This document shows, one piece after another, positions 474-25,777 of a stretch of DNA of 64,000 bases (positions are counted from its first letter, which is position 1; every line of letters starts with the position of its first letter). Both the position numbers and the translations under genes were made by a program. Under the pieces are notes generated by a model that was not told the DNA's origin, searched no databases, and was given only the letters and a program-made list of their open reading frames with translations. Location of the stretch: the IMG/VR virus record IMGVR_UViG_3300005537_000002, positions 64,001-128,000 of that record. The stretch is one strand, 5' to 3'. The DNA comes from a virus.

Positions 474-2048
474 GTGTGTAGTATATCCGGTGTGATTATG
501 CCCGAGGGTACTTCGTACCTGAGTACGAGGCTACGGCATATCATAGATCAGGCATGTGAGAGAGGTCGTGACAGTTGGGGTACTGTCACGCTGCATACAG
601 ATCATACATACAGCAGCGTACGCTATACTGGTAGTCCGATCGAGACAGGGGTCGCTGGTACGTATCTACCTAGTAGCGCTAGGATATGTATATCGACATG
701 TAGGGCGGAGCCAACTACAGAGTGGGTACGGGAGAAAGGTATATACGATATACCACCATTCGTACATGGGAATTGGGCTTGTGCTCATAATGGATGCATA
801 GCCAACGATAAAGAGTTGGTACAGCGGTATGGACTATCGTTGGGTACGTCTATAGATACAGCGGTTATACCGGCCGTGTTGGACAAGATATGTCCCGACG
901 AACTCGATCTGGATCGTATACAGGAGTTCCTACGAGACGAGATCGAGGGTTCGTATGCTCTTGCGCTTGTGAATAGACGACATCCGGATACGCTTATCCT
1001 AGCCGTGAACTATCAACAACTATACATCGCGTATGATCAGCAGGCGGGTGCGTTGTTCTTCACCTCTATGGAAGAACACCTGTACGATGATACAGATATA
1101 CACCGCAGACTCGTACAGGGAGGGGTAGTAGAAGTACCTGCATACTCCATGCAGGTAGTACATCTTCCATCCCATAGGGGTAGTACATCTGTCATGGGTA
1201 GCAGTACTACCCTGCATGCAGGGTACAGTACAGATACAGGGCAGGGTAGTAGTACAGCCATGCAGGGTACAGTACAGATACAGGGCAGGTCCTTAAGGCA
1301 GTCCAGGGATGTACATAAGGCCCTGGTGGTCTGTAGTGGTGGACTAGACAGTACAGTAGCTGCTAGGGAGATGCAGGTACGTGGGTACGATGTTACACTG
1401 CTGCACTTCCTGTACAAGTGCAGGGCACAGGAGGGTGAGGTAGAGGCTGTACGTAAGATAGCAGCTGCCATGAACGTACCCTACCTATTCTGGGAGACAG
1501 ACTTCTTCACCAAGGTAGGTGGGTCTAGACTCACTAACACACACGGAGAGATCAACCGAGAAGGTGGTGGAATAGCAGGAGCAGAACTAGCTTGGGAGTG
1601 GTGTCCCGCAAGAAACACTGTCTTTCTAGCTATGGCTGCAGCTATAGCCGAAGTGCACGACTTTGAGTGTATTGTGTTAGGAGCAAATTTAGAAGAGGCC
1701 GGAAGTTATGCAGATAATACTCTCCCATTCATACGTAAGTTGGATGCAGTACTACCGTATGCACTCAATCTACACCACTACGTACGACTGGAGGCACCTC
1801 TCGTCAACCTGATGAAGCACGAAATCGTAGCATTGGGCCTGAAAAATGGTGCGCCGATGGAGCATTCGTACTCGTGCTATGAGTACGGAGAGCACCACTG
1901 TAACAACTGCGGTCCTTGCTTCTTACGTAAGACGGCGTTTAAGATGAACGGGACAGTGGATCCAGTGTTCGAGCATCTGTCTGAGGACGAGTTTTGGAGT
2001 GGGTGCGTTCCCTACTCCAAACGATCGGATCCAGCCATAGTTCGTTAG
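474..2048 (+). CDS. queC: Gat-QueC fusion (class II glutamine amidotransferase + 7-cyano-7-deazaguanine synthase)
   Basis: N-terminal MCSISG (Ntn Cys2), RAEPTTE, HNGCIAN; QueC motifs SGGLDST, CPARNTVF, and Zn site SC..G..HC..CGPC..R. Confidence 0.92.
   Translation: MCSISGVIMPEGTSYLSTRLRHIIDQACERGRDSWGTVTLHTDHTYSSVRYTGSPIETGVAGTYLPSSARICISTCRAEPTTEWVREKGIYDIPPFVHGNWACAHNGCIANDKELVQRYGLSLGTSIDTAVIPAVLDKICPDELDLDRIQEFLRDEIEGSYALALVNRRHPDTLILAVNYQQLYIAYDQQAGALFFTSMEEHLYDDTDIHRRLVQGGVVEVPAYSMQVVHLPSHRGSTSVMGSSTTLHAGYSTDTGQGSSTAMQGTVQIQGRSLRQSRDVHKALVVCSGGLDSTVAAREMQVRGYDVTLLHFLYKCRAQEGEVEAVRKIAAAMNVPYLFWETDFFTKVGGSRLTNTHGEINREGGGIAGAELAWEWCPARNTVFLAMAAAIAEVHDFECIVLGANLEEAGSYADNTLPFIRKLDAVLPYALNLHHYVRLEAPLVNLMKHEIVALGLKNGAPMEHSYSCYEYGEHHCNNCGPCFLRKTAFKMNGTVDPVFEHLSEDEFWSGCVPYSKRSDPAIVR
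1215..1289 (+). repeat. 31-bp direct repeat (1215-1245, 1259-1289) in the Gat-QueC linker
   Basis: CATGCAGGGTACAGTACAGATACAGGGCAGG occurs twice, period 44 nt. Confidence 0.9.
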
Positions 2049-6651: not shown

Positions 6652-7994
6652 GATCTGTTTATAAAAGTATTACGTATAGTGCATTGTGGATGGTTACGGC
6701 TGCTATAGCAGCTTCAACTAGGTTTATACAACCGCATCCATTCGATACGCCGTTTCTCGATACGATGAGACACGTTATAGTCTTCTTTGCGTCTATACTA
6801 CTAGCGAAATACTTCTTCTATATGGTAGTAGCTCCATTCTACGACGTAATAGAGAGTCGCAGAGTCGTTACTACGCTTATGGCGGACTACTACCCGTTAG
6901 TGTCAGTGATGATACCTGCCTGGAACGAAGAGGTAGGTCTACTAGGTACGGTCAAGACGCTACTAGACTCCACCTACAGACATGTGGAGCTCGTCATTGT
7001 GAACGATGGTAGCACAGATGGCTCGCACGCAATGATGCTCAACTTCGTCAGTAAGTATAACGAGCAGATGACTGACGTACCCGAGTACAAGCGCATACGT
7101 ATACTCTACCACTACCAACCAAACGGAGGCAAGGGAAGCGCACTAAACACAGCGATCCAACTGTCTCACGGAGCTATACTACTGTCCATTGACGCTGACT
7201 GTCACGTTCACGCCCGCTGTATTGAGGAGTTCGTGAACGCATTCCGTAACCCTAAAGTTATGGCTGCCGTCGGTAACGTGAGGGTAGGCAATACAAAGTC
7301 ACTCGTGGGTACAATCCAGTACCTAGAATATATCTTCGGATTCTACTTTAAGAAAGCGGACAGCTTGCTCAACACCATCTATATTATCGGTGGAGCGGCT
7401 GGTGCATTCCGGCGGGAAGTGTTTCAAGTGATTGGTGGGTATAATACCAAGAACATTACGGAAGACATTGAGCTATCCGTCCGAATACAGGAACAAGGTT
7501 GGAAAATCGTTTACTGTCCTGGAGCACTCGTACTAACTGAGGGAGCGTCTACACTCACAGGCTTGAAGAAGCAACGCTACCGTTGGAAGTACGGTCGGTT
7601 CCAAACGTTTATGCAGCATCGCAACTTGTTCTTCTCGACTGAGCGTAGGCATAACAAGTTGCTGTGCTGGGTGATACTACCGCTAGCGATATTTGGGGAG
7701 GTGCAACTCGGACTTGAGTTACTATTTATCACTATGCTATACGTATTCGCACTCCTATCGGGTGACTTCTCGGCATTTCTGAGTGGTGTATTTGTAGTCT
7801 CTCTCATGTTCGGCGTACAAGCACACGACAGTGGAGAGTTCAACATCAGCACTCTACTGCTAGCACCTATAGGGTGGCTACTATTCTACGTCACCACCTA
7901 CGTCGAGGTGTACGCACTTATCCGGAGTATATGGAATCTAATCCGCAAACGCGACGTACAGTGGCAGAAGTGGAAACGAACCGGTGTACAATGA
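6648..7994 (+). CDS. Processive GT2 glycosyltransferase (PgaC/IcaA/cellulose-synthase-like)
   Basis: IPAWNEE, NDGSTD, GGKGSALN, DAD, TED, QRYRW (QxxRW) and flanking TM helices. Confidence 0.92.
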   Translation: MRSVYKSITYSALWMVTAAIAASTRFIQPHPFDTPFLDTMRHVIVFFASILLAKYFFYMVVAPFYDVIESRRVVTTLMADYYPLVSVMIPAWNEEVGLLGTVKTLLDSTYRHVELVIVNDGSTDGSHAMMLNFVSKYNEQMTDVPEYKRIRILYHYQPNGGKGSALNTAIQLSHGAILLSIDADCHVHARCIEEFVNAFRNPKVMAAVGNVRVGNTKSLVGTIQYLEYIFGFYFKKADSLLNTIYIIGGAAGAFRREVFQVIGGYNTKNITEDIELSVRIQEQGWKIVYCPGALVLTEGASTLTGLKKQRYRWKYGRFQTFMQHRNLFFSTERRHNKLLCWVILPLAIFGEVQLGLELLFITMLYVFALLSGDFSAFLSGVFVVSLMFGVQAHDSGEFNISTLLLAPIGWLLFYVTTYVEVYALIRSIWNLIRKRDVQWQKWKRTGVQ

Positions 7995-8893
7995 CAAACA
8001 AAGAAAAAGGGTTCACTATGGCGGTGTGTATAAATTGTGGAAAAGGACTTTCTCTATGGAACAGACTTGTGAGACAGACCATATGCAGTGAATGTGGTGA
8101 ATACTTTCAGAACGAACGTTATAGGTGGCTGTCTGCGATCGAGAGGGACTTTTCTAGAGGAGGTGTATCCTTAGAGTTGGAGACCCAAATGTATCAACAC
8201 TTCCAAAGTATACATATGCCTGAGTATGAAGGCATCCCTGTCATAGAAAAGATGAGATACTTTAGAGAACTTTCGGAAGTGCAGTGGGGTAATGTACCAA
8301 CCATTCGTATAGATAGGCATCTAGACTCAGATGAGTACGCCTACTTCTCGTTCGAGACTACGTACTATAATAAACAGCTAAGACCCGTCGAGGGTATATT
8401 GGTAGGTACTAACAAGAAGTGCTACTTCCACCCCATATCTGGCGTAGGTGGAGTACATATCAATTGGGGTAATATAAGCCAAGTGAAGGAGGAGTCCGTA
8501 CGAGTATACACCCATCCCAGACCTCTACGAGGTGTTACAGAACAGTTGGTAGTCAAGAGGGTTTTAAGAATCTCCGTATCTGCCAGTTCCGGTGGAGGGG
8601 ATTACTACGTAAGAGACCCGTTTAAGGCTTGTATCTACATCGACACTCTTGTACGTATTTGGAAGAGACAACTAATCATTCGTAGAGAGTTAGGCACATA
8701 CGGAGACGTACCTAATCACGTAAAGTCTGATGTGTATAAACGAGATAAGGGATGCTGTCAACAATGCGGCTACAGTGGGGACTACATCGAGTATGACCAC
8801 ATCATACCTCGGAGTAAGGGAGGGTCGAATACGGTAGATAATATACAACTTCTTTGTAGGAGATGTAATTTGCAAAAGGGAGATAGGCTGTAA
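7991..8893 (+). CDS. HNH endonuclease with an extended N-terminal region
   Basis: RDKGCCQQC...EYDHIIPRSKGGSNTVDNIQLLCRRCN; N-terminal CxxC pairs. Confidence 0.85.
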   Translation: MTNKEKGFTMAVCINCGKGLSLWNRLVRQTICSECGEYFQNERYRWLSAIERDFSRGGVSLELETQMYQHFQSIHMPEYEGIPVIEKMRYFRELSEVQWGNVPTIRIDRHLDSDEYAYFSFETTYYNKQLRPVEGILVGTNKKCYFHPISGVGGVHINWGNISQVKEESVRVYTHPRPLRGVTEQLVVKRVLRISVSASSGGGDYYVRDPFKACIYIDTLVRIWKRQLIIRRELGTYGDVPNHVKSDVYKRDKGCCQQCGYSGDYIEYDHIIPRSKGGSNTVDNIQLLCRRCNLQKGDRL

Positions 8894-13216: not shown

Positions 13217-13750
13217 ATGACGACTAAGTATTGTTGCGGATGTCAAAAATGGCTGTCGCTACATGAGTTTGGTAAAGACAAGTCGACTAAGGATGGTCTC
13301 AACGCTAAGTGTAAGGCTTGCATCAATGCTAGAGCCGCAATCAGCCGTGCGAAGCAGACTAGCGAGCAGTATGAGAGAGCGTCAGAGTACCAGAAGCAGT
13401 ACTATCGAGACCACCGAGAGCTGTTAGTAGCACAGGCTGCTATGCGTCGGGAGACACAGCGAGAGCATATACGGGCGATTGACAAGAGGTCTCGCTTAAA
13501 GCATAGGGCGAGCACGCAAGCTAGTACGTCTGCGTACCAGGCACGTCTGAGAGGTCAGTACGTAGCTCCGGTCTCATTGGACGTACTGTACGCTAGAGAC
13601 AAAGGAGTCTGTGCTTTATGTGGGGAGCCAGTCAACCGGTCAGAAGCCTCTATCGACCACATCGTACCCCTGTCGGAAGGTGGCTTACACGGTCCAGATA
13701 ACGTACAACTCGCCCATCGCAGTTGTAATTCTCGAAAGCAAAACGGTTAA
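13217..13750 (+). CDS. HNH homing endonuclease
   Basis: N-terminal CxxC..F.KD....DGL...CKAC; RDKGVCALC...IDHIVPLSEGG.H..DNVQLAHRSCN. Confidence 0.88.
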   Translation: MTTKYCCGCQKWLSLHEFGKDKSTKDGLNAKCKACINARAAISRAKQTSEQYERASEYQKQYYRDHRELLVAQAAMRRETQREHIRAIDKRSRLKHRASTQASTSAYQARLRGQYVAPVSLDVLYARDKGVCALCGEPVNRSEASIDHIVPLSEGGLHGPDNVQLAHRSCNSRKQNG

Positions 13751-14289: not shown

Positions 14290-14988
14290 ACCTTGTACGA
14301 AGTGTAGCGCTCCCGAAAGGCAGAAGGGCCAGTCTCTATGCGTAACCTGTCAACGTGAGTACGAGAGGCTGTGGCGAGAGAAAAATAGAGAGAAGATTAA
14401 CCACCAATACAAACAGTGGCGTGCGAATATGACAGAAGGTCAGCGCGAACGTGAAAGAGAATCCGGTAGAAGAGGAGAAGCAAAAGTTCGACAGAAGTTA
14501 CTCGAATACAGACTAGAACACCCGTGCATCGATTGTGGAGAGACTAATCCTATATGTCTACACTTCGATCATGTAACCGGTGAAAAACGTATGGATATCA
14601 CCCACTTACGAACGTACGGGTGGCCAAGCGTAGAAAAGGAACTTCAAAAATGTGTAGTGCGATGTGGGAACTGTCACGTCAAAAGACACTTCCTAACTAA
14701 AGGTACTACAAAGTACGGACCTAGTAAACATCTCTCGAAAGCAGCGAACGCTAGGAGAGATGTGTTTAGGCGCTATCTCCAACTGTGGGGGTGTATAGAC
14801 TGCGGTTTACAAGATGTAGACTGTTTGGAGTTCGATCACGTCTTCGGAGAGAAGTTAGCAGACGTAAGTATACTAATCGACAACGATACCAAAACTGGGA
14901 GGCTACAGTCGACGAAATCGCTAAGTGCGAAGTAGTCTGCGTAAACTGCCACGCTAAACGTACTGAGAGTAGGGGGTATCAATGGTAG
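14279..14988 (+). pseudogene. Tandem double-HNH endonuclease with a frameshift near 14885-14895
   Basis: Two CIDCG...FDHV.GEK modules. The second module's KCEVVCVNCHAKRT is in the -1 frame and ends at 14988, overlapping the pol ATG. Confidence 0.75.
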
Positions 14989-17900
14989 TAGAAACTTCAT
15001 GGGTGGGTTCAGCAGACAGAAGTCTGCTAGCACTATGCAAGTGCTCAACTTGTGGTCTATGCAATCAGAATGACTTCAAACCAGTAATGGGTTACGGAAA
15101 TAGTGGAGCTAGAGTTATATTCGTAGGGGAAGCAGCCGGCCGTAATGAACATATCCAGGGTATCCCGTTTGTAGGAGAGTCCGGTAGGCTCTTGACAGCT
15201 GTGCTCCAAAGGGTACAGCTGTCAGATGGAAGTTACCTGCAAAGAGATGACGTCTACCTTACGAACGCTTGTCTGTGTCGACCAGAAGACAATCGTACAC
15301 CGTCAGCTGCAGAAATCGTGGCTTGCAACGAGCGTTTGAAGGCGGAGATCAAATCTCTTCCTAACCGACACTTGATTGTAGTGTTGGGTAGTAGTGCGAT
15401 CAAGGCTGTAACTGGCAAGCACCAGAGTATGAACGCCATGCACGGTAAGATTGAGTGGAGTGCTGAGTTTCAGTGCTTCATTACGTATACGTGGCACCCA
15501 GCGTACATATTGAGGACTCCGAATGACTTTCCTGACCTTGACTACGTCATGAGTCAGATACCGAGCATTCTGGATACGCCTAAAGGGCCTATCCAATTTC
15601 AGCCGCCGAAGTATATCGTAGAAGACTCCATCGATATGGCGATTAAGCGATTGCTACACTTGCTTGATCACGTCGAAGGTGATGTCGCTTGTGACATCGA
15701 AACGACCAACTTGGAGTTAGCACAGCCAACTAACTTCATTCTCGAGATCGGCTTCTCTTGGGAGGATGGAAAGGCGTACATCTTACCTCACCACATCTTC
15801 AACGACAGTCAAGTGAAGGTAGTACTGATACGCTTCCTGGAAAAGAAGAGTGTGCGGTTTGTATACCACAACGGGATGTTCGACATTGCGTGGTTGCGCT
15901 ACAAGTTGGGAGCTAAACAGGCTTGGATTGGTGCGGACACGATGTTGATGTCTTCACTCTATGATCCAAGAGGTAGAGGCGGTGGAGAAGGAGATGAAGT
16001 GCAGGGGGTTGGAACGACACACGGCCTAAAGCCATTAAGCCGCAAACACTGTCAAGCACCAGCTTGGGAAGATGACATTCATGCGTACCTTCCGAATAAA
16101 GAAGCGAGCTTCGAACTCATACCGGCAGATGTCCGACAGAGGTATATGAGCTTCGACTTGGTGTACACGTTACGGCTCTTTAGGAGACTAACAGAGCTGT
16201 TAGAAAAGGAAGATCCCTCCGCTGAAGGTTACCCAACTCCACTTGAGTGCCACTACAATCTGCTCATACCCGCGGCTAACATGCTAGCGGACATTGAGTC
16301 TCACGGTATCCTCATCGACCGTAAGTACGTGGAGGAACTGAGAGACAAGATGGAAGAGCAGATGCGGGTCTCTAACGAGAAGATCCGAGAGGCCACTAAA
16401 GAATTCTTCAGACGAGACGGTCAAGAGATTACGTTACGTAAGTCGAGAGACGAAGAAGTAACCGAGCGTAAACGTAAGCTCGTAGGTACAGAAGTCCGGT
16501 GGAAAGCACGTAAGCGATATGACAAGTCAGCTAAGGCTTGGGTGCCGGACACTCCTGTACCGGACGGAGTGAGACAGCTGTACGAATACGAGTACATAAC
16601 TAGGGTAGTTAAGAGGTACTATGACGTTGTGCTTAGGGGTGAAGAAGCCGTTGAACACCTAGCGAACGAGTTCAACGTACGCTCTGCTTTACACTTACGA
16701 CACATTCTCTACGACCACTTAGGCTTACCGCCAGTTGAAGGTAAAGAAGTCACTGACAAAGATCAACTAGAACGATACAAGCATGCTCACCTCATTATTC
16801 CACTCATAATGGAATACAAGAACGTGAACCGGCTATATGGCATCTTCATCAAAGGGATGCTAGCTAGATTAGATCCGTATGACCGGTGTCACCCACGATT
16901 TAACATTCATGCAACTCGTACAGGACGATTGTCGAGTTCTAATCCTAATAGTCAGAACATCCCAAGGGATGGACTCATCAAACGTATGTTTACCGTTCCA
17001 AAGGGATACGTTTTTGTCGAAAGTGACTATAGCGGACTTGAGTTCACTGTCATTGCGTGGTACTGTAACGCTCACGTCAATCCAGCATTCCACGATCCGA
17101 CTTTAGCACAGGACGTAGCTGGCGATATCCACCAAGCCTTTGCTGAAGAAGCGTTCGCAGAGCTACTAGCGAAGATCCGAGCGAACAAACGTAGTCTATC
17201 GGCGCTCGAACAGATCATGCGTGAAGAAGTTATCATGACGGAGAAGCGCATCGAGCAGGAGCGAGATAAGCGAACCGATCCGGAGGAAGTAGCTTCACTA
17301 ATGCTGAAGCACGCACGCTTTATGGCAAAATTCTGTACCTTCGGCATTTTGTACGGACGTTCGGCTCACTCGCTAGCGTTTGATGATGATGGTATGCACG
17401 TCTCTCTCGAACAGGCTGAGGAGTACTTACGTAAGTTCTTCGCTAAGTATAATGGCTTGTACAGATTCTTGCAACAACAAACAAAGTACGCACTCGAACG
17501 TGGTTGGCAAGAGATGCCTAGCGGTAGACGAGCGAAGTATCCGTTCATCACTAGAGACAATCGGTCCCAAATTGAACGTCAGAGTTGGAACTCGCCTATT
17601 CAGGGAGGTGCAAGTGACATTTGCTTAGGGGCCTGTATAGACCTACAGAAAGAGCTAGTTGCTAGAGGTTGGGGTTACGTGCTCTTCATTGTACACGACG
17701 CTATCATGATGCAACTAAAAGAGGAGCATATGCATGAAGGTATTGCTCTTATGAAGTCGATCATGGAAGGAGTCACACAGAAACTAAAGTCGCCAGTTGA
17801 CTTTAGGGTTGAGACTAAAGTCGGTAAGAATTGGGGTGACGCAGTCGACATAGAAGTGGAGCACGAACTAGTACACCACCATACTAAAACTGCACACCAC

Positions 17901-18032
17901 GAGATTTCCAGTGACTGTTTCCAGTACGTGTTGTACACGTACACTGACAGCGAAACAGGCTTACCCAAAACGAAACGAGTCCCGCTATGTTCAGTACCGG
18001 TTGAAGACAGACAGGCAACTGTGCTAGCGTAA
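14982..18032 (+). CDS. polA: Family A DNA polymerase with N-terminal family-4 uracil-DNA glycosylase domain and 3'-5' exonuclease
   Basis: UDG: GEAAG, YLTNACLCRP, HPAYILR, four Fe-S Cys. Exonuclease: DIET, HNGMFD, YMSFD. Polymerase motifs A (SDYSGLE), B (RFMAKFCTFGILYG) and C (VHDA). Confidence 0.95.
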   Translation: MVVETSWVGSADRSLLALCKCSTCGLCNQNDFKPVMGYGNSGARVIFVGEAAGRNEHIQGIPFVGESGRLLTAVLQRVQLSDGSYLQRDDVYLTNACLCRPEDNRTPSAAEIVACNERLKAEIKSLPNRHLIVVLGSSAIKAVTGKHQSMNAMHGKIEWSAEFQCFITYTWHPAYILRTPNDFPDLDYVMSQIPSILDTPKGPIQFQPPKYIVEDSIDMAIKRLLHLLDHVEGDVACDIETTNLELAQPTNFILEIGFSWEDGKAYILPHHIFNDSQVKVVLIRFLEKKSVRFVYHNGMFDIAWLRYKLGAKQAWIGADTMLMSSLYDPRGRGGGEGDEVQGVGTTHGLKPLSRKHCQAPAWEDDIHAYLPNKEASFELIPADVRQRYMSFDLVYTLRLFRRLTELLEKEDPSAEGYPTPLECHYNLLIPAANMLADIESHGILIDRKYVEELRDKMEEQMRVSNEKIREATKEFFRRDGQEITLRKSRDEEVTERKRKLVGTEVRWKARKRYDKSAKAWVPDTPVPDGVRQLYEYEYITRVVKRYYDVVLRGEEAVEHLANEFNVRSALHLRHILYDHLGLPPVEGKEVTDKDQLERYKHAHLIIPLIMEYKNVNRLYGIFIKGMLARLDPYDRCHPRFNIHATRTGRLSSSNPNSQNIPRDGLIKRMFTVPKGYVFVESDYSGLEFTVIAWYCNAHVNPAFHDPTLAQDVAGDIHQAFAEEAFAELLAKIRANKRSLSALEQIMREEVIMTEKRIEQERDKRTDPEEVASLMLKHARFMAKFCTFGILYGRSAHSLAFDDDGMHVSLEQAEEYLRKFFAKYNGLYRFLQQQTKYALERGWQEMPSGRRAKYPFITRDNRSQIERQSWNSPIQGGASDICLGACIDLQKELVARGWGYVLFIVHDAIMMQLKEEHMHEGIALMKSIMEGVTQKLKSPVDFRVETKVGKNWGDAVDIEVEHELVHHHTKTAHHEISSDCFQYVLYTYTDSETGLPKTKRVPLCSVPVEDRQATVLA

Positions 18033-19875: not shown

Positions 19876-20451
19876 ATGCTAGAATCGATAGAGACAACAC
19901 ACAACGGTTTCAGATTTCGTTCCCGAAAGGAGGCCCGTTGGGCTGTGTTTTTCGACACAGCCCAAATACCTTTCCTCTATGAACCGGAGGGCTTCAAGCT
20001 ATCATTCGATGCTTCGCAGAAAGACTACAGTTTCACTGACTCTGACGACATAGAGGAAACTCTATGGTACTTACCCGACTTTTGGCTGCCGCAACAAGAC
20101 TGCTATTGGGAAGTAAAGGGGGTAGAACCCGCAAGAATGGAAAACATTCGTGCGAAGAGACTAGCTTACGGGTCAGGTAAAGATGTATTCATCAGCTTCG
20201 GTGACATATGGCTCCCAGAAGAAGGTACAAATACAGACTATTGTAGCGCTCACGTCTTCTTCGGTAGTGGAGGTTGGGACCTAGCATACTGGTGGTGCCA
20301 ATGCGACTATTGTGGCAAACTCCAACTACAGTTTGAGGGTCGAGTAGAGCGCTGCTCTTGTAAACAGACTGAACGTAGGCTTAAAGGAGGAGGTACAAAC
20401 TCCGATCGATTAGTAAGGGCCTATAAAGCAGCTCGTAGTGCTAGATTTTGA
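19876..20451 (+). CDS. PD-(D/E)XK-family nuclease
   Basis: FRSRKEARWAVFFD...YEPEGF...YLPDFWLP....WEVKG. Confidence 0.8.
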   Translation: MLESIETTHNGFRFRSRKEARWAVFFDTAQIPFLYEPEGFKLSFDASQKDYSFTDSDDIEETLWYLPDFWLPQQDCYWEVKGVEPARMENIRAKRLAYGSGKDVFISFGDIWLPEEGTNTDYCSAHVFFGSGGWDLAYWWCQCDYCGKLQLQFEGRVERCSCKQTERRLKGGGTNSDRLVRAYKAARSARF

Positions 20452-20462
20452 GGAGTTGGTTC

Positions 20463-21476
20463 GTGATTGCTACAAACACGTTAGTGTGGACGGATGCTAG
20501 CGTGAAAACGTTAGCGCAGTTGAGCGTTGGAGACAAGGTCGTTTCCAACGCTCAACTTAAGCAGGTTCGAACGGTCGAACGGACTGAAGTAGATAGGACG
20601 CTTACTATACGTGCAGCAGGTGTGCAGGATGTGTGTATGTCACTCGACCAGCAAGTGTATAGTCGTAAGCCTAAAGATGTCGAATGTACGTGGCGTATAG
20701 CGGCTGAGCTAGATACGGAAGATTTTATTTGGGTTCCTCGTCTGACAGCCACGTCTTGGAACACTGACTATCGAAGTGTTGCACTAACTCGAGAGCTTGC
20801 CAACGTTATTGGCTGGTACTTAGCTGTAGGAAATGCTATACCTAGCACAGGTATGGTGTACTGGAACTTTACTCGAGCAGAGGAGGAATACGCCGCACAA
20901 CTCATGTCAGACCTGCTAGTCGTGCGTGCATTCTTCGTTACGGAATCATCGCACAATAGAATCGGTATGCCTCGTATGCAGCACACGGGCATCAATGGCA
21001 TACTGGTTAAGTTCGGGAGTAAGCGTATGTCTGACTGGCTGAAACTGAACTTCGGCAACGCTTCGGCTAACAAACACATTCCTCCGTGGGTGTATAGAAC
21101 GTCTCCTAAGTTTATTGACCAACTGCTAGCCTCGTATTCGCATGCCGACGGTATTGCGGGTCGTGAGTGGCTAGTTAGCACAGTGTCAATTGACCTAGCT
21201 TACGGCTTGCAACGCTTGCTCAATAAACTTGGGAAGTGCATACGGGTCATCACTAAAGATAACACGTACGGGTACCCCACACTCCATCAATGGGAGTACG
21301 TACTGTACTACGGGTGGCATAGAAGGCAGTCTCAGAAATTCGTCGGCGCTTATAAAGACCACTTCGAGTGTGCTATAGAACGGATTACGCCCTCGAATAA
21401 ACGTATGGAGGTAGGGACTATCCACACTGTAGGCTCGCTACCCTACGCAGTTCCGTACTTAGTGATGCCTACTTGA
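20463..21476 (+). CDS. Free-standing intein-derived Hint + LAGLIDADG protein, splicing-dead
   Basis: Starts at intein block A (M-IATNTLVWT...LSVGDKV). LAGLIDADG blocks IGWYLAVG and LLASYSHADG, KHIP, STVS.DLA.GLQRLL.KLG; no Cys1 or terminal HN. Confidence 0.75.
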   Translation: MIATNTLVWTDASVKTLAQLSVGDKVVSNAQLKQVRTVERTEVDRTLTIRAAGVQDVCMSLDQQVYSRKPKDVECTWRIAAELDTEDFIWVPRLTATSWNTDYRSVALTRELANVIGWYLAVGNAIPSTGMVYWNFTRAEEEYAAQLMSDLLVVRAFFVTESSHNRIGMPRMQHTGINGILVKFGSKRMSDWLKLNFGNASANKHIPPWVYRTSPKFIDQLLASYSHADGIAGREWLVSTVSIDLAYGLQRLLNKLGKCIRVITKDNTYGYPTLHQWEYVLYYGWHRRQSQKFVGAYKDHFECAIERITPSNKRMEVGTIHTVGSLPYAVPYLVMPT

Positions 21477-21548: not shown

Positions 21549-22127
21549 GTGAGAACTGAGGACATACTACTGGACCTCCGACTTTCCATTTCGCCAACAA
21601 CGTTCGGGTTGAGTGCTGACGAAAAGCGACTACTAAAGTACGCTTTCACCATCAGTAGGAACTTCTTCCACGAGAGCGACCTACTACCTCTAAAAGAGTG
21701 GCAGAAATACTTCGCGGAAGAACTTTCAGAGTCCCAAGCAGCCGAAGAAGAGGGTAGACGTATTGTAGCAGATCCGAACGCAACTGAGGACCAAAAGATA
21801 CGGGCTTGGCTGAACGTCTATCTAGAGGGTTCAGACTTACTGTACGATGCCGTATGCTGTTACTATAGAGGTAGTAAAGATGAACTACGTTTCGCAAAGG
21901 ACTGTTTTGCGAACTCAGGTTGCACCTATGACGGTTTCTTGGCAGCGGCACTCATTAAGTACGAACTACGGCAGCGAGATAAAAACCCAGACGTAGAACT
22001 CGCGCGTATCGGAGCGCACTTCAGCTACGCTCTTATTAATGGGAAGTGGTCCGCTGACCCCAATGACTTACCGAAGTCAGAGGCGATGTCAGTCATCGGT
22101 AGAAGCGTAGAGTACCGCTTCGACTAG
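21549..22127 (+). CDS. Possible MazG-like all-alpha nucleotide pyrophosphohydrolase
   Basis: EELSE...LEGSDLLY...KYELR resembles EExxE...ExGD...K..R. Confidence 0.35.
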   Translation: MRTEDILLDLRLSISPTTFGLSADEKRLLKYAFTISRNFFHESDLLPLKEWQKYFAEELSESQAAEEEGRRIVADPNATEDQKIRAWLNVYLEGSDLLYDAVCCYYRGSKDELRFAKDCFANSGCTYDGFLAAALIKYELRQRDKNPDVELARIGAHFSYALINGKWSADPNDLPKSEAMSVIGRSVEYRFD

Positions 22128-22241
22128 GAGGTAGCAATGTCAGTAGCCCTGTGTCAAGACATACTACTATACCTCGCTATCGCTGGTAGCTCGCTTGGAG
22201 GCATCTACTTCGTTGTGCTATCTCTAGCGAGAGGATGAGTA

Positions 22242-22526
22242 ATGGCGGCAGTTACGTCTGCGGCGATACTTTCTGTGGCGCTATTAGTAATACTATCCGG
22301 TAGGTACAGAAAACGTAGAAGCAGGTGGAAAAGCAACCATCTCATCTTCAGTATCGGATGTGGATCGTTCTTTCTAGTGCTATTGTTAGCACTAGTTGCT
22401 AGTGCATTCACTGTACTGTACAGTGCAGAGCATGCGTTCTTTGTAGACGCAGTTGCAACTTGGATCGTTGCATTCTGCTGTGCTTGTATATGCCTCGGAA
22501 GTCTTTTTGCGTACTTCCGAGGCTAG
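22242..22526 (+). CDS. Small multi-TM membrane protein
   Basis: Three hydrophobic segments. Confidence 0.5.
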   Translation: MAAVTSAAILSVALLVILSGRYRKRRSRWKSNHLIFSIGCGSFFLVLLLALVASAFTVLYSAEHAFFVDAVATWIVAFCCACICLGSLFAYFRG

Positions 22527-22544
22527 CTACTTATATGGAGTCTT

Positions 22545-23108
22545 ATGTCAGCAGATACACCTATTGTAGATCAGCCTACGTCAGAGTTACCAGTAGTGCG
22601 ACCAACTCATACTTGGAGGGTAGTAGCAGATCCGAAGGGGGATCGGAAGCTACTGTCAGTTGGAACGAGCGTACTTGAAGCTATTCAAAGCTTCGCTCGT
22701 GGAGTACAGGATAACCAGCCGATTGGCATCTATTTAGATGATGTACCCGTCGCCGGAGTACACATCCAAGCAAACCAACCGCCGCTATGCTTACATATCC
22801 TAACGGATATGTCAGCGGCAGATATTGATTGGCACAGCGGACCTACTTCTGTTTGCACGATCGACGAGACGACGGTTATCGACTTGTTGAAAGTCGCATG
22901 TAACGGAGGTAGGATAACGTCCAAACTTCGATTGCCCCTCCCAGTTGTCAGTCGCACCTCAGATGTAAGTTCACTCACACTCGTGAAACTACTACTCTCC
23001 GCACTGTCCAACGAGACACAACCCCATGTGCTAACTGAGCAATGCCAAGCAATCGTCGTACAAGTTGACAAGACGTCGTGTAAATATCTACACGTCAAAC
23101 GTAGTTAA
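22545..23108 (+). CDS. Hypothetical protein
   Basis: GGAG RBS; directly upstream of the RAMP-like gene. Confidence 0.55.
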   Translation: MSADTPIVDQPTSELPVVRPTHTWRVVADPKGDRKLLSVGTSVLEAIQSFARGVQDNQPIGIYLDDVPVAGVHIQANQPPLCLHILTDMSAADIDWHSGPTSVCTIDETTVIDLLKVACNGGRITSKLRLPLPVVSRTSDVSSLTLVKLLLSALSNETQPHVLTEQCQAIVVQVDKTSCKYLHVKRS

Positions 23109-23129
23109 GTAGAAGGGAATACCACGAAT

Positions 23130-23693
23130 ATGGCTGCAGTTATCATCGTCTCCATTACGGGGATGACCCCACTTATTATGAACCGCTTCCACGAGGAAGC
23201 ACAGGCAGAAGCTACCTCCCGCGTACACTCACGTAAGGAAACGCTCTCTCCGGAAGACGACGCCAAAGGTAGACTCTACCAAAACGAAGAACTCGGAGTC
23301 TACATGCCGGCCGAGTGGGTCCGTCAGTCTGTTATTGAAGCAGCTAAGAGACACAAAATTGGTAGACGGGCCGCTACTACAGACATTGCTGCCGCTGTGT
23401 ACATCGAACCGTTCGCTATGAAGCTCGAAGGTGAGTGGCACGTAGACACTCGTCCAGTCGTTATACCTGCCACTCAAGGACGTATTCTCAGACACAGGCC
23501 GATGTTCGAAACCTGGTCCGTGAAGGGTTTTCGATTGCAAGTCGAAACTGACCTCGTCGACGAAAAGCTAGTACGAGCTGTGCTAGACGACAGCGGTAGA
23601 TTCGTAGGGGTAGGAGACTTCAGACCCACTAAGAAAGGCCCCTACGGCAGATTCCGTGTAGACAGTTGGGAACGTTTAAGCAACCACTCATAA
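23130..23693 (+). CDS. Minimal RAMP/Cas7-like protein (Vipr-like)
   Basis: beta1 ITGMTPLIM, YMPAEWVRQSV (Cas7-like y.P...+G/Q..), C-terminal Gly-rich loop GRFVGVGDFRPTKKGPYGRFRV; no other cas genes in the window. Confidence 0.8.
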   Translation: MAAVIIVSITGMTPLIMNRFHEEAQAEATSRVHSRKETLSPEDDAKGRLYQNEELGVYMPAEWVRQSVIEAAKRHKIGRRAATTDIAAAVYIEPFAMKLEGEWHVDTRPVVIPATQGRILRHRPMFETWSVKGFRLQVETDLVDEKLVRAVLDDSGRFVGVGDFRPTKKGPYGRFRVDSWERLSNHS

Positions 23694-23694
23694 A

Positions 23695-24886
23695 GGTTTG
23701 GTTTGTCAAGTTAGGCTATGGTGGGTCACGGCAAGGTAAGGACGCTTCGGCTCGGATTGGTGAGCTATAGTAAGTCACGGTAGGGTGTTGTAGGGTAAGG
23801 ATGGCGTGGTTTGGACTAGTGCGACTTGGAGCCGTGGGGTAAGTCACGTTCCGGTATCGCGCGGTGTGGATGCCCAGGTACGGATCGGTTTGCTAGTGCG
23901 AGGTTGACACTGGTAGAGTTTGGTTTGTCTAGCTGGCGTCAGGTGAGGAAGCTATGGTGAGGTCGAGCATGGCAGAGTTTGCTCGGGTACTGCTAGGCGG
24001 GTTAAGGTACGGTCCGGAAGCTTTGGTCAGGTTAGGTATGCTCGAGTTTGTTACGGTGTGTTAAGGTTCTGTTTGGCTTGCTACGTTATGTATAGGTTGG
24101 CTATGCTGAGATATGGTAAGGACGCTTTGGTTTGGACTGGTCGGGACAGTTAAGGGGTGGTCCGGTATAGCTTGCTACGGATTGGTTTCGTTCGGCTCGG
24201 TTAGGAAGCTTCGGTACGGTGAGTTGAGGCTAGGATTGCAATGGTCGGGTATGTTTTTATAGGGTTCGGTTAGATCAGTAGTGGTAAGGCGCCGTAGGGA
24301 CAGGTCTGAGAGGCGAGGTTGCATGCGGCTAGGAGTGGTGTCGTATGGTACGGATGCTAAGGAGAGGTTAGGACTGCAATGGTCTGTCGCGGTAATGACA
24401 GGCGTGTCGATGTGTGGTATGTTCAGGTGAGGATGCTTCGGTATGGATCGGCGCTGTTTGGAAAGGTTTGCTAGGGTAAGTCGAGGCTCACAGAGGTATG
24501 GTAGGTCGTGGTACAGAACGGTTCGGAAGCCTAGGTATGGTACGTAATGGCATGCTTTGGTAGTCTTTTGTCTGGCACGCTAAGTCGAGGTGGAGTTCGG
24601 TAAGCTGCGGAGAGGAAGCTAAGGTCTGGAACGTCGAGGTATGGTATGGGAAGCCATTGTACGGTGAGTCGGTGTGAGCGAAGGTTTGTTAGGCTGGGGT
24701 ATGGAAGTCCAGGAAAGGTGAGGTGCAGTTTGGCAGTGCGTGGTGAGGTAGGGCTGTGTCCCGGTAACGTGAGGTAAGGTACTGCAACGCGCGGTGAGGT
24801 TCGGATGCTAAGAACAGGCGTGGTACGGTATAGTGGGGAAATGCTAGGTAAGGCATGTCAAGTTGCGCTTGCGTAAGGTACGGTTT
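23695..24886 (+). repeat. Non-coding GGY-NN pentamer array (predicted guide-RNA precursor): 213 pentamers, 15 segments, 14 nine-nt delimiters
   Basis: Parsed by hand: 213x5 + 14x9 + one extra base = 1192 nt. Begins 1 nt after the RAMP stop codon; no + strand ORF. Confidence 0.9.
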
Positions 24887-25167
24887 TACAGCGCGTGATA
24901 GTATGCGGAACCGTTGTCGAAGCATACTATCACGCGTTCGTAGTGGTTTCGGTACGCTCTATCATAGTTTGGGGTTCCGATGAGATGTAGAGCCATCTCA
25001 ATTGTAGAGTCTGACGTGTATAGCACAGTGCCATCATTAGAGGCCTTTGCTAGGTAATAGCGTACTAGGCTACCCCTTCGGACTAGCACAGTTGCATTGT
25101 AGGTCGGTTCGTTTGTCCGAGCTCTCAACAGAGAAAACGGACGTTCATTGGCTTTCCCCTCTGACAT
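24886..25167 (-). CDS. Hypothetical protein, the only plausible minus-strand gene
   Basis: AAGGAG RBS on the minus strand; convergent on the array; divergent from the AT-rich promoter at 25204. Confidence 0.45.
   Translation of the reverse strand: MSEGKANERPFSLLRARTNEPTYNATVLVRRGSLVRYYLAKASNDGTVLYTSDSTIEMALHLIGTPNYDRAYRNHYERVIVCFDNGSAYYHAL
24892..24936. terminator. 15-bp perfect hairpin closing the array
   Basis: CGCGTGATAGTATGC-15 nt-GCATACTATCACGCG. Confidence 0.65.
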
Positions 25168-25203
25168 GGATACCTGTTCTCCTTCGTAGTAAACACAGCC
25201 CTC

Positions 25204-25233
25204 TTGAATTTAGTTTATGTAATTTATTATAAT
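25204..25233 (+). promoter_or_regulatory. Sigma70-like phage promoter
   Basis: CCTC-TTGAAT-18-TATAAT. Confidence 0.7.
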
Positions 25234-25294
25234 ATAAATAGAAGAGTAAAAACAAGGATCGCTGTATCTTTGGTACGAGCAACGGAGGACGCAA

Positions 25295-25777
25295 TTGAGC
25301 TATGACAACAATGTAGCGGAATACCCTCGCCCTAAGAGCAGGAGGGCGCAACGGGTTATGGAGGAGCGTATCGCAGCATTAGACTGCGATATCGTAAGTC
25401 GGACAGAGGATACGATAAGCGTCTCCTATCCCGACGACCTCACTAAATTTCAACTGGATCAAGTACTAATGCACGCGTATGAGTACCAACTGTTCACGTT
25501 GTGGGATGCCTTAGATGTAGGCATCGGAGCATCAACGTGTGGAGCGACGTCGAAAGGTTTGACCCTCATAGGTGTCACTCGAGTAAGGGGGAGAGCGTAC
25601 TGTTTACGTATCTCCTACAGCGTCTTAAGGTCAACTGAACAGGGAGTAGTCTGCATTTGGAAAGCAAATGAGAGCAACCAACTGGAACTAGCTATGAGAG
25701 CGATGTTCGGCCTAGAACTTTCTGATGCAGTCTGGTTTCCCTACTGGGAAGAGAGTTCCAACGGAGGAGGACAATGA
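25295..25777 (+). CDS. Hypothetical protein
   Basis: GGAGG RBS. Confidence 0.55.
   Translation: MSYDNNVAEYPRPKSRRAQRVMEERIAALDCDIVSRTEDTISVSYPDDLTKFQLDQVLMHAYEYQLFTLWDALDVGIGASTCGATSKGLTLIGVTRVRGRAYCLRISYSVLRSTEQGVVCIWKANESNQLELAMRAMFGLELSDAVWFPYWEESSNGGGQ

What the first reader, a model, noticed from the sequence alone, without database searches (positions are those of the whole stretch)
23130..24886. Minimal Cas7/RAMP-like gene + 1.2-kb GGY-NN pentamer array: candidate phage RNA-guided system with a non-contiguous guide code
Seen: a 187-aa ORF with RAMP-like hallmarks (ITGMTPLIM; YMPAEWVRQSV; Gly-rich loop GVGDFRP..GPYGRF). One base after its stop begins an ORF-free 1,192-nt tract with strict 5-nt periodicity (e.g. 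GGTGA GGTCG AGCAT GGCAG AGTTT GCTCG GGTAC). Positions 1-3 are GGY or a near variant and positions 4-5 vary freely. No cas1/2/3 and no CRISPR repeat-spacer array occur in the window. Established: Cas7-family RAMPs polymerise along RNA with fixed nucleotide periodicity. Inference: one protomer binds each pentamer, gripping GGY and displaying NN, so the NN string specifies a gapped nucleic-acid target, plausibly in competing phages or mobile elements. This matches my recollection of recently reported phage VIPR (Viral Interference Programmable Repeat) systems; that is recalled, not verified here, so the class may not be wholly new.
Basis: partly seen in the sequence, partly recalled or inferred. 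Interest (0 to 1): 0.96.

Follow-up and report, generated by a model that had tools for sequence, protein, structure and literature searches.

The report
Phage VIPR locus with staggered guides
A 178-kb uncultured phage carries a genuine VIPR system, the CRISPR-like RNA-guided DNA silencer described in 2026 preprints: a small Cas7-like protein gene followed by about 16 guide RNAs built of five-base repeats. It is a new example of a published class, and its targets remain unknown.

Summary
ORF 23130-23693 (187 aa) is followed, three bases after its stop codon, by 1.19 kb of non-coding YNNGG (= GGY-NN) pentamers.

The protein is a Vipr:
- It matches the solved SUSP1 Vipr by sequence (PDB 36pp, E 4.5e-9).
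- It keeps the GGY-contact residues.

All six close homologue loci, and most of the 17 distant ones, have a pentamer tract next to the gene. The phage genome has no Cas1, Cas2 or CRISPR array.

The rhythm is not strict. Fifteen register slips, 14 of them -1, cut the tract into 16 runs of 8-20 units. Most of the 14 four-base slips sit in a conserved GGA-N-GC boundary. This fits the "staggered, 1-nt-overlapping" arrays of the VIPR preprint rather than the tailed SUSP1 type.

Three things differ from close relatives or stay open:
- Interior units are degenerate (46% perfect GG, against 96% at run ends).
- No recognisable vap gene is adjacent.
- Gapped (xNN) target searches gave only chance-level hits.

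This is a new member of a known kind. The scan has noted VIPR-like loci in at least 146 other genomes.

The parts
23130..23693 (+). vipr gene: 187-aa stand-alone RAMP (Cas7-like) protein
23694..24888 (+). vrRNA array: 226 YNNGG pentamers in 16 in-phase runs, same strand as vipr, probably in its 3' UTR
   Evidence: No sigma-70-like promoter between the vipr stop codon and the start of the array; the one consensus match in the tract (24395-24423, 9 of 12) is at chance level. No Rfam family and no hammerhead.
23697..23741 (+). guide run 1 (9 units)
23746..23800 (+). guide run 2 (11 units), after boundary GGACGC at 23740
23805..23869 (+). guide run 3 (13 units), after slip ATGG at 23801
23874..23948 (+). 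guide run 4 (15 units), after boundary GGATGC at 23868
23953..24017 (+). guide run 5 (13 units), after boundary GGAAGC at 23947
24022..24121 (+). guide run 6 (20 units), after boundary GGAAGC at 24016
24126..24205 (+). guide run 7 (16 units), after boundary GGACGC at 24120
24210..24304 (+). guide run 8 (19 units), after boundary GGAAGC at 24204
24309..24353 (+). guide run 9 (9 units), after atypical slip TCTG at 24305
24358..24432 (+). guide run 10 (15 units), after boundary GGATGC at 24352
24437..24526 (+). guide run 11 (18 units), after boundary GGATGC at 24431
24531..24615 (+). guide run 12 (17 units), after boundary GGAAGC at 24525
24620..24704 (+). guide run 13 (17 units), after boundary GGAAGC at 24614; holds a boundary-like GGAAGC at 24649 with no slip
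24709..24758 (+). guide run 14 (10 units), after boundary GGAAGT at 24703
24765..24804 (+). guide run 15 (8 units), after the only +1 slip (TCCCGG at 24759)
24809..24888 (+). guide run 16 (16 units), after boundary GGATGC at 24803
24892..24936 (+). Hairpin directly after the array: perfect 15-bp stem (24892-24906 with 24922-24936). Probable 3' end or terminator of the vipr-array transcript.
   Evidence: RNA fold -38.9 kcal/mol, z -4.2, 0 of 200 shuffles fold as well. Coordinates. No T-run, so the consensus terminator scan does not call it. The next promoter-like site is at 25204-25233 and the next + gene at 25295.

Best explanation
This is a VIPR (Viral Interference Programmable Repeat) system of a complete 177.6-kb uncultured phage.

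The 187-aa Vipr protein is a minimal Cas7-like RAMP. Its gene is probably transcribed together with the 1.19-kb array behind it. The array is of the 'staggered' kind: 16 in-phase runs of 8-20 YNNGG units follow each other with no tail, leader or ribozyme. Each is offset from the next by one base at a conserved boundary, GGT-nn-GGA-n-GC-Ynn-GG. This can be read as a last unit GGANG sharing its final G with a first unit GCYNN.

By homology with SUSP1 Vipr, one protomer should bind each pentamer. It would hold GG and Y in protein pockets and present the NN pair. The NN string of a run would then read double-stranded DNA with one skipped base per unit (xNN), giving sequence-specific binding and silencing of a competing mobile element or a host gene.

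Inference made here: the register slip, and the purine in the pyrimidine-only Y pocket at each boundary, end one filament and start the next. One transcript would thus yield about 16 separate guide complexes.

Shown here: homology, fold, residue conservation, array grammar, boundary grammar and co-occurrence with homologues.

Inferred from the literature and not tested here: transcription, RNP assembly, the skip rule, silencing, and what is targeted.
For: Protein identity
- Homologous to the solved SUSP1 Vipr (E 4.5e-9). tblastn also hits phage phiSUSP1 itself and 160 other phage records, all annotated as hypothetical.
- The alignment with SUSP1 Vipr keeps the residues that cryo-EM shows contacting GGY: H17=H21, E71=E62, R138=R123, D177=D163, W178=F164, R179=R165. 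Five are invariant and F164 nearly so among 34 close homologues.
- The family is large: 2649 cluster representatives at E <= 0.001.

Array
- YNNGG logo.
- 14 of 15 slips are -1 (p 5e-4). 13 of the 14 four-base slip units begin with A, against 13% A at that position in ordinary units (p 4e-11).
- A 27-nt boundary repeat family was found independently of the segmentation, and information content peaks at the boundaries.
- My segmentation recovers the published 1 + 3 tailed vrRNAs of SUSP1, as a positive control.

Context
- All 6 close homologue loci have arrays abutting vipr, with -1 four-base slips in the five whose arrays were segmented. One array spans about 1.55-1.85 kb.
- About 12 of 17 distant homologue loci in bacterial and archaeal genomes have short 5-periodic tracts abutting the gene.
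- The record is a complete virus with direct terminal repeats and has no Cas1, Cas2 or CRISPR array.
- No self-target scores above shuffled guides, as the preprint also reports for its own systems.
- NN composition correlates with codon positions 1-2 in the sense orientation (r 0.56) and not with the other frames. This is weak and confounded.
Against: - No target was found. Eight exact seed scans of 9-11 units (six in IMG/VR, two in JGI metagenomes) and mismatch-tolerant scans of the phage's own genome and of three Vipr-carrying phages gave only chance-level matches. The best were 24/32 (75%) and 25/36 (69%), below the preprint's 80% cut-off.
- Only 59% of units carry a perfect GG, against 78-96% in relatives. 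Interior units are 46% perfect, so some decay cannot be excluded.
- No vap-like accessory gene is recognisable. The upstream ORF 22545-23108 has no homologue among 5.8 billion proteins. The DUF559 nuclease and the other adjacent genes of relatives have no homologue in this genome, and the one helicase homologue lies about 37 kb away.
- No sigma-70-like promoter or canonical terminator was found.
- Expression, processing and binding are untested.
- The end-versus-interior contrast is partly biased, because the segmentation places each slip where the flanks score best.
Confidence: 0.9

Rival explanations
1. It is a VIPR locus in decay. vipr is intact, but the array interior is eroding and most guides no longer work, so only the boundary elements and a few guides remain under selection.
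For: Only 59% of units have a perfect GG, against 78-96% in six arrays of relatives. Interior units are 46% perfect. No targets were found.
Against: 140 of 145 interior units keep at least one G of the pair. The preprint notes frequent internal degeneracy, and even YNNNG and NNNNG repeat types, in working classes. Boundaries and the run-end units are 96% perfect. All GGY-contact residues of the protein are intact. Uniform neutral decay would also erase the boundaries and produce +1 slips as often as -1 slips.
Confidence: 0.12
2. The array works mainly as a decoy or sponge rather than as a set of guides. Its RNAs would load or titrate the Vipr proteins of rival phages, or redirect them, as the solo vrRNAs of the E. 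coli F5 satellites do.
For: The October 2026 preprint shows satellites encoding stand-alone vrRNAs that hijack a phage's Vipr. The array is unusually long and has no detectable targets.
Against: The array sits directly behind its own intact vipr on the same strand with no promoter between them. Relatives have the same gene-plus-array layout. Nothing tested here separates decoy from guide.
Confidence: 0.05
3. It is an orphan CRISPR Cas7 gene next to an unrelated G-rich simple repeat (a satellite, or G-quadruplex-prone DNA) with no guide function.
For: The fold is Cas7-like. GG every five bases could form two-tetrad quadruplexes (general knowledge, not tested).
Against: By sequence the protein is nearest to SUSP1 Vipr, not to any Cas7. 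There are no cas genes or CRISPR array. The repeat has two free positions and three fixed ones, which is not the pattern of a decaying satellite. Gene and repeat travel together in 6 of 6 close and most distant relatives, although the neighbouring genes differ.
Confidence: 0.02

Closest known systems
VIPR systems with 'staggered' vrRNA arrays (bioRxiv 10.64898/2026.04.26.720920, main text and legend of fig. S18)
   Same: A stand-alone Vipr gene lies beside a continuous GGY/NN pentamer array. Successive vrRNAs start at positions that overlap by one nucleotide, so the end of one marks the start of the next. Here 14 of 15 slips are exactly -1.
   Different: The figure and data tables are not held, so I cannot tell whether the boundary grammar seen here is described. 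That grammar is an invariant purine in the Y position (GGA), then GC in place of GG, inside a roughly 27-nt conserved context. Relatives use other boundary words: T[AT]GG in L003 and L004, CTG[GCT] in L023. The preprint says staggered arrays were not among the architectures confirmed by small-RNA sequencing. The VIPR type (I-VII) of this locus could not be assigned.
Type II VIPR of Escherichia phage SUSP1 (Vipr, vap1, four vrRNAs; PDB 36pp; bioRxiv 10.64898/2026.04.26.720920, .720927, 10.64898/2026.10.15.759431)
   Same: The protein is homologous (28% identity, E 4.5e-9) and keeps the GGY-contact residues. It has the same YNNGG unit and the same phage setting near replication genes: a DNA ligase lies upstream in SUSP1, and PolA lies upstream here.
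   Different: SUSP1 has 4 separate vrRNAs of 12-16 units, each with a conserved leader and a roughly 40-nt pseudoknot tail, one of them upstream of vipr, plus a second annotated gene directly after vipr (presumably the paper's vap1). Here there are 16 abutting runs of 8-20 units, all downstream, with no tails, no recognisable vap and much more interior degeneracy.
Cas7 backbone subunits of class 1 CRISPR effectors (Csm3, Cmr4, type VII Cas7)
   Different: The period is 5 nt with three bases sequestered, not 6 nt with one base flipped. There is no crRNA repeat handle, no Cas5, Cas6, Cas10 or Cas11 partner, no Cas1-Cas2 adaptation and no CRISPR array. The published target is dsDNA read with gaps.

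Membership tests
VIPR system | Protein homologous to an experimentally characterised Vipr | tested here: met
   phmmer against PDB chains: the only hit is 36pp_D 'SUSP1 Vipr protein', E 4.5e-9. tblastn hits phage phiSUSP1, E 8e-7. Alignment.
VIPR system | Residues that hold G1, G2 and Y3 of the GGY motif in the SUSP1 structure | tested here: met
   H21, E62, R123, D163, F164 (W in SUSP1) and R165 align with H17, E71, R138, D177, W178 and R179. Five are invariant and F164 nearly so in the clade. K33 of the helical bundle aligns with H33, with basic R35 and K36 nearby, in a low-confidence region.
VIPR system | Tandem YNNGG (GGY/NN) repeats, at least 4 units, beside the vipr gene on its strand | tested here: met
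   226 units in 16 runs starting 3 nt after the stop codon. This is the only such tract in the genome.
VIPR system | Not part of a CRISPR-Cas locus; mostly viral or proviral setting | tested here: met
   No Cas1, Cas2 or CRISPR-like array in the 177.6-kb genome. The record is a complete virus with terminal repeats.
VIPR system | Homologues co-occur with pentamer arrays | tested here: met
   6 of 6 close loci and about 12 of 17 distant loci.
VIPR system | Adjacent vipr-accessory (vap) gene (typical, not universal: six vap families for seven types) | tested here: inconclusive
   The upstream ORF 22545-23108 has no Pfam, PHROG, NCBIfam or PADLOC hit and no homologue. The DUF559 nuclease and the DinG-like helicase next to relatives' vipr genes are not adjacent here.
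VIPR system | vrRNAs are expressed and co-purify with Vipr | not testable with these tools
   Needs small-RNA sequencing and a pull-down.
VIPR system | Guides match natural targets by the 1-nt skip rule better than shuffled guides do | tested here: inconclusive
   The phage's own genome and three Vipr-carrying phage genomes show nothing above shuffles. Eight exact-seed scans of IMG/VR and JGI metagenomes gave only chance-level hits, at most 75% NN match. No mismatch-tolerant search of a large database was possible.
Type II (SUSP1-like) VIPR architecture | Separate vrRNAs, each ending in a conserved structured 3' tail of about 40 nt | tested here: not met
   Runs abut at 4-nt slips with no tail or leader. 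The SUSP1 control shows tails with the same method. No Rfam structure was found.
Staggered-array VIPR architecture | Successive vrRNAs overlap by one nucleotide within one continuous array | tested here: met
   14 of 15 slips are -1. Actual processing sites were not tested.
Class 1 CRISPR-Cas effector (Cas7 member) | Cas7 encoded with other cas genes and a CRISPR repeat-spacer array | tested here: not met
   No PADLOC or NCBIfam Cas model hits the protein.

The most novel reading that the evidence does not exclude
In this clade the guides may be delimited by the protein's own reading rule rather than by an RNA tail, a ribozyme or a dedicated nuclease. Each boundary would stop one Vipr filament and seed the next in a new register. 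It does so with a -1 slip and, in this phage, an invariant purine in the pyrimidine-only Y pocket followed by GC in place of GG. One 1.2-kb transcript would then carry about 16 self-limiting guide filaments. The two near-perfect units at each run end would serve as nucleation or cap sites, and interior units would need only one G. If so, this would be a tail-free way of making multiplexed guides. It would also show how much of the GGY scaffold is dispensable.
Probability: 0.3. Interest if true: 0.55.

Novelty: new member of a known kind. Interest (0 to 1): 0.35.

Why it matters
VIPR is a very recent class of RNA-guided DNA binders that reads DNA with gaps and is proposed to predate CRISPR. Its experimental work rests on a few type II systems from enterobacterial and Pseudomonas phages.

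This locus adds a well-delimited natural example from a distant, uncultured clade:
- Its Vipr is at most 37% identical to that of any cultured phage.
- It has one of the longer arrays seen here (16 guides).
- It has a clear boundary grammar and a degree of scaffold degeneracy that could inform guide design.

It does not change what is known about the class, and its biological targets remain unidentified.

Tried and rejected
- **Pfam, NCBIfam and PADLOC** give nothing significant for the protein. Only phrog_4652, of unknown function, matches.
- **megablast** of 12 kb around the locus against INPHARED phages found no match.
- **Tandem Repeats Finder** finds no array. **Rfam** finds no family, so the array is not interspersed with hammerhead ribozymes.
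- **Two other 5-periodic places** in the genome (genome 26876-27201 and 56826-57126) are not arrays on inspection.
- **Self-targeting and cross-targeting.** I scored this phage's 16 guides against its own genome and three Vipr-carrying phage genomes, and 19 guides of those relatives against all four genomes, at skips of 0-3. Nothing exceeded shuffled guides. The only perfect matches were the relatives' arrays matching themselves at skip 3, which shows that the code works.
- **Exact xNN seed scans.** The 20-base seed of run 11 hit one IMG/VR contig, but its extension matched 5 of 16. The 18-base 3' seed of run 12 hit six contigs. Five of them encode the same recombinase peptide LTKEGSKAE, in an ORF I read as UvsX/RecA-like from its Walker-A motif only, not from a family search. 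The 5' half of the guide matched 2 of 16, and about one or two chance families are expected per seed. The 20-base seed of run 7 hit one metagenome contig at 24/32. The other seeds gave nothing, apart from one more chance-level hit (23/38).
- **A shared vap gene.** No ORF within 18-31 kb of the window matches the neighbours of vipr in L002-L004. A homologue of the L023 helicase exists about 37 kb upstream, too far away to call accessory.
- **VIPR type (I-VII).** It could not be assigned, because the preprint's supplementary tables are not held.
Full report
**Observation.** The window lies at 64001-128000 of a 177,637-bp IMG/VR virus record with direct terminal repeats, estimated 100% complete. 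ORFs of 110 aa or more lie almost all on the + strand.

From 23694 to about 24888 there is no ORF over 49 aa. G makes up 39% of the tract. G autocorrelation at lag 5 is 0.37, and the Fourier peak is at 4.95 nt. Across the whole genome, the lag-5 value in 200-nt windows has mean -0.02 and sd 0.08 and reaches 0.51 only here. Two weaker places elsewhere are not arrays.

A dynamic-programming segmentation that allows units of 3-7 nt gives 239 pentamers over 23694-24960. The logo is Y 86%, N, N, G 80%, G 72%. This is the YNNGG (= GGY/NN) unit. Tandem Repeats Finder sees nothing, which fits two hypervariable positions in every five.

**What is known.** Three preprints describe VIPR systems:
- bioRxiv 10.64898/2026.04.26.720920: discovery, the 1-nt skip rule, seven types, vap genes.
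- bioRxiv 10.64898/2026.04.26.720927: 21 cryo-EM structures.
- bioRxiv 10.64898/2026.10.15.759431: competition between phage and satellite.

In these systems a stand-alone RAMP protein, Vipr, polymerises with one protomer per repeat on vrRNAs of 9-16 YNNGG units. It sequesters GGY and presents NN. The NN string pairs with dsDNA while skipping every third base, and binding represses transcription. Besides the tailed type II arrays, the first paper names staggered arrays with vrRNAs overlapping by 1 nt, hammerhead-interspersed arrays, and single-vrRNA loci.

**The protein is a Vipr.**
- Pfam, NCBIfam and PADLOC give nothing significant. PHROGs gives phrog_4652, of unknown function, at E 9e-25.
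- Against all PDB chain sequences, the only hit is 36pp_D, 'SUSP1 Vipr protein', at E 4.5e-9 over residues 38-178.
- tblastn against 50,697 phage records finds 161 records, including phage phiSUSP1 itself. All are at most 37% identical and annotated as hypothetical.
- Aligned with the SUSP1 protein taken from its genome record, the residues that contact G1, G2 and Y3 in the cryo-EM structure are kept: H17=H21, E71=E62, R138=R123, D177=D163, W178=F164, R179=R165. Five of these are invariant and F164 nearly so among 34 close homologues.
- An AlphaFold2 model built on that alignment has mean pLDDT 89.7 and pTM 0.83.
- The family is large, with 2649 cluster representatives at E <= 0.001. The close clade (55-71% identity, at least 150 proteins) is purely metagenomic.

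**Co-occurrence.** All six close homologue loci that I fetched have YNNGG arrays abutting the gene (L002-L004, L021-L023). The array is upstream in some, downstream in others, or on both sides, and L023 has a periodic tract of about 1.55-1.85 kb. Among 17 distant homologue loci (26-40% identity) in bacterial and archaeal genomes, about 12 have a short 5-periodic G or C tract touching the gene. The organisms named in the records include Bradyrhizobiaceae, Geobacter, Mesorhizobium, Thermoplasmata, Bathyarchaeia and Saccharibacteria. The neighbouring genes differ between loci, so the gene and the array are what travel together. The phage has no Cas1, Cas2 or CRISPR-like array.

**Anatomy of the array.** The rhythm is punctuated. 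Within 23694-24890 the segmentation finds 15 register slips. Fourteen are 4-nt units (-1) and one is a 6-nt unit (+1). The method penalises both directions equally, so the excess of -1 slips is significant (p 5e-4).

The slips divide the tract into 16 in-phase runs of 9, 11, 13, 15, 13, 20, 16, 19, 9, 15, 18, 17, 17, 10, 8 and 16 units. Thirteen of the fourteen 4-nt units begin with A, although A is penalised by the method and occupies that position in only 13% of ordinary units (p 4e-11).

Aligning twelve of the boundaries gives GGT-nn-GGA-n-GC-Ynn-GG-ynn-GG, with information content peaking at the boundary. The GGA in that alignment was required by the search pattern. An independent repeat search finds the same element as a 27-nt family without that requirement.

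Read in the GGYNN register, a boundary is a last unit GGANG that shares its final G with a first unit GCYNN. This is the 1-nt overlap that the preprint describes for staggered arrays.

The segmented arrays of relatives also show regular -1 slips, but with other boundary words: T[AT]GG in L003 and L004, CTG[GCT] in L023, and a mixture in L002. As a control, the same segmentation of the SUSP1 locus recovers one upstream and three downstream vrRNAs of 12-16 units, each with its conserved tail. The architecture here is therefore truly different from type II. Rfam finds no hammerhead or any other family.

**Degeneracy.** Only 59% of units have a perfect GG, against 78-96% in six arrays of relatives. 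The two units at each end of a run are 96% perfect (54/56). Interior units are 46% perfect (67/145; Fisher p 1e-12). Part of this contrast may come from the segmentation choosing the best-scoring slip position.

Nearly all interior units keep at least one G: 67 GG, 44 Gx, 29 xG and 5 with neither. The preprint mentions frequent internal degeneracy and even YNNNG and NNNNG repeat types. I read this as tolerated degeneracy, with partial decay as the main rival explanation.

**Expression signals.** The first clear unit starts 3 nt after the vipr stop codon. The sigma-70 consensus scan finds no promoter-like site between the stop codon and the start of the array. It does find one weak match inside the tract (24395-24423, 9 of 12), but the total of 3 sites in 22000-25500 equals the 3.1 expected from shuffles. 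That scan may not suit this host.

Directly after the last unit lies a hairpin with a perfect 15-bp stem (24892-24906 with 24922-24936). Its fold energy is -38.9 kcal/mol and z is -4.2. A 355-nt gap follows, holding the best promoter-like site of the region (25204-25233), and the next + strand gene starts at 25295. The simplest reading is a vipr-array transcript that ends at the hairpin. This is inferred, not shown.

**Mechanism.** Steps taken from the literature, not tested here:
- One protomer binds each pentamer.
- GG is held by the G-loop, the thumb and the beta-sheet.
- Y sits in a pocket that sterically excludes purines.
- NN is presented for pairing.
- The R-loop forms from the 3' end towards the 5' end with one skipped base per unit.

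My own inference is that a boundary ends one filament and starts the next. It combines a register shift with, in this phage, an invariant purine where only a pyrimidine fits and a GC where GG is expected. Sixteen guide complexes would then form on, or be trimmed from, one transcript without tails or ribozymes.

**Targets.** None of the 16 guides matches the phage's own genome better than shuffled guides at any skip length. This agrees with the absence of self-targeting reported in the preprint. There is also no match in three fully fetched Vipr-carrying phage contigs, and none of the 19 guides of those relatives matches any of the four genomes.

Large collections can only be searched with exact patterns, so I used 9-11-unit xNN seeds and tested the rest of each guide as an extension. 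Six scans of IMG/VR and two of JGI metagenomes gave 0-6 hits each, in line with chance. The extensions were also at chance. The best totals were 24/32 and 25/36, below the 80% cut-off.

The 3' nine units of run 12 spell LTKEGSKAE in a recombinase ORF present in five viral contigs. I read that ORF as UvsX/RecA-like from its Walker-A motif alone. The wobble bases differ between the contigs, which is how a true VIPR target would look. However, the 5' half of the guide matches only 2 of 16 positions, and one or two chance families are expected per seed.

NN composition correlates with codon positions 1-2 of this phage's genes in the sense orientation (r 0.56) and not with other frames. This is weakly in line with wobble-skipping targets but is confounded by constraints on the RNA itself. 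The target question stays open. These searches were too insensitive to count against function.

**Accessory gene and type.** The ORF 22 nt upstream of vipr (22545-23108, 187 aa) has no homologue among 5.8 billion proteins and no family hit. Relatives carry a DUF559/MTES_1575 nuclease-like gene (L002-L004, L022) or a DinG-like helicase (L023) next to vipr. This phage has only a distant helicase homologue about 37 kb away. The preprint lists six vap families for seven types, so a locus without a vap is not excluded. The type cannot be assigned without the supplementary tables, which are not held.

**Verdict.** This is a bona fide VIPR locus of the staggered-array kind in a large uncultured phage. 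Earlier notes of this scan suggest a soil phage of Chloroflexota. I did not test that, although one homologue is labelled as coming from a Ktedonobacteraceae MAG.

It is a new member of a known kind. Earlier notes of this scan hold 176 VIPR-like findings in at least 146 genomes. Three features deserve a specialist's attention: the boundary grammar, the strong contrast between run ends and interiors, and the lack of an adjacent vap.

Noticed in passing
window 474-2048: A 524-aa fusion of a glutamine amidotransferase domain with QueC (PF06508, E 2e-50), as found in phages that put 7-deazaguanine derivatives into their DNA. Whether such modified DNA can be read by a VIPR complex, the phage's own or a rival's, is an open question.
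   Followed up: partly
window 14982-18032: A 1016-aa DNA polymerase A with an N-terminal uracil-DNA-glycosylase-superfamily domain and a 3'-5' exonuclease domain. The VIPR locus lies about 5 kb downstream of it, in the replication module.
   Followed up: partly
window 20448-21476: A free-standing 342-aa ORF. Its only hit is to the middle part (positions 369-621 of 761) of a PHROG of anaerobic ribonucleotide reductase large subunits. That part might be an intein or homing-endonuclease insert rather than reductase sequence, but this was not tested.
   Followed up: no
window 22545-23108: A 187-aa ORF 22 nt upstream of vipr with no homologue among 5.8 billion proteins and no family hit. It is either a lineage-specific accessory gene or not a gene.
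   Followed up: partly
L023:5776-7626 (JGI metagenome contig of 139 kb): A Vipr homologue (60% identity) preceded by a 662-aa DinG/XPD-like helicase and followed by a YNNGG tract of about 1.55-1.85 kb. It has roughly 330-350 units, 86% with perfect GG, and about 20 boundaries of the form [CA]AGG-CTG[GCT]. It is longer and cleaner than the array in the window.
   Followed up: partly
L002:3244-3669, L003:2875-3540, L004:2790-3446, L022:4162-4761: In four relatives a homologous gene sits just upstream of the array and vipr. It is a DUF559/MTES_1575 restriction-endonuclease-like gene in L003 and L022 by Pfam, and in L002 and L004 by similarity to L003. It is a candidate nuclease-type vap for this clade and is absent from the window's genome.
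   Followed up: partly
window 24571-24615 (3' nine units of guide run 12) versus L043, L044, L046-L048: The NN string CT-AC-AA-GA-GG-TC-AA-GC-GA matches codon positions 1-2 of the peptide LTKEGSKAE in a recombinase ORF, read as UvsX/RecA-like from its Walker-A motif only, in five viral contigs that differ at the wobble bases. The rest of the guide does not match, so this is consistent with chance.
   Followed up: yes
window 24226-24246 and 24364-24384: Two guides (runs 8 and 10) share a 21-nt stretch at 90% identity, with NN strings GA-TA-TT-AT-CG and GA-TA-CT-AT-CT. This suggests guide duplication, or two guides aimed at variants of one site.
   Followed up: no
window 7874-8893 and 13217-13750: Two HNH endonuclease genes (PF01844) lie in the nucleotide-modification and replication region. 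They are probably homing endonucleases.
   Followed up: no
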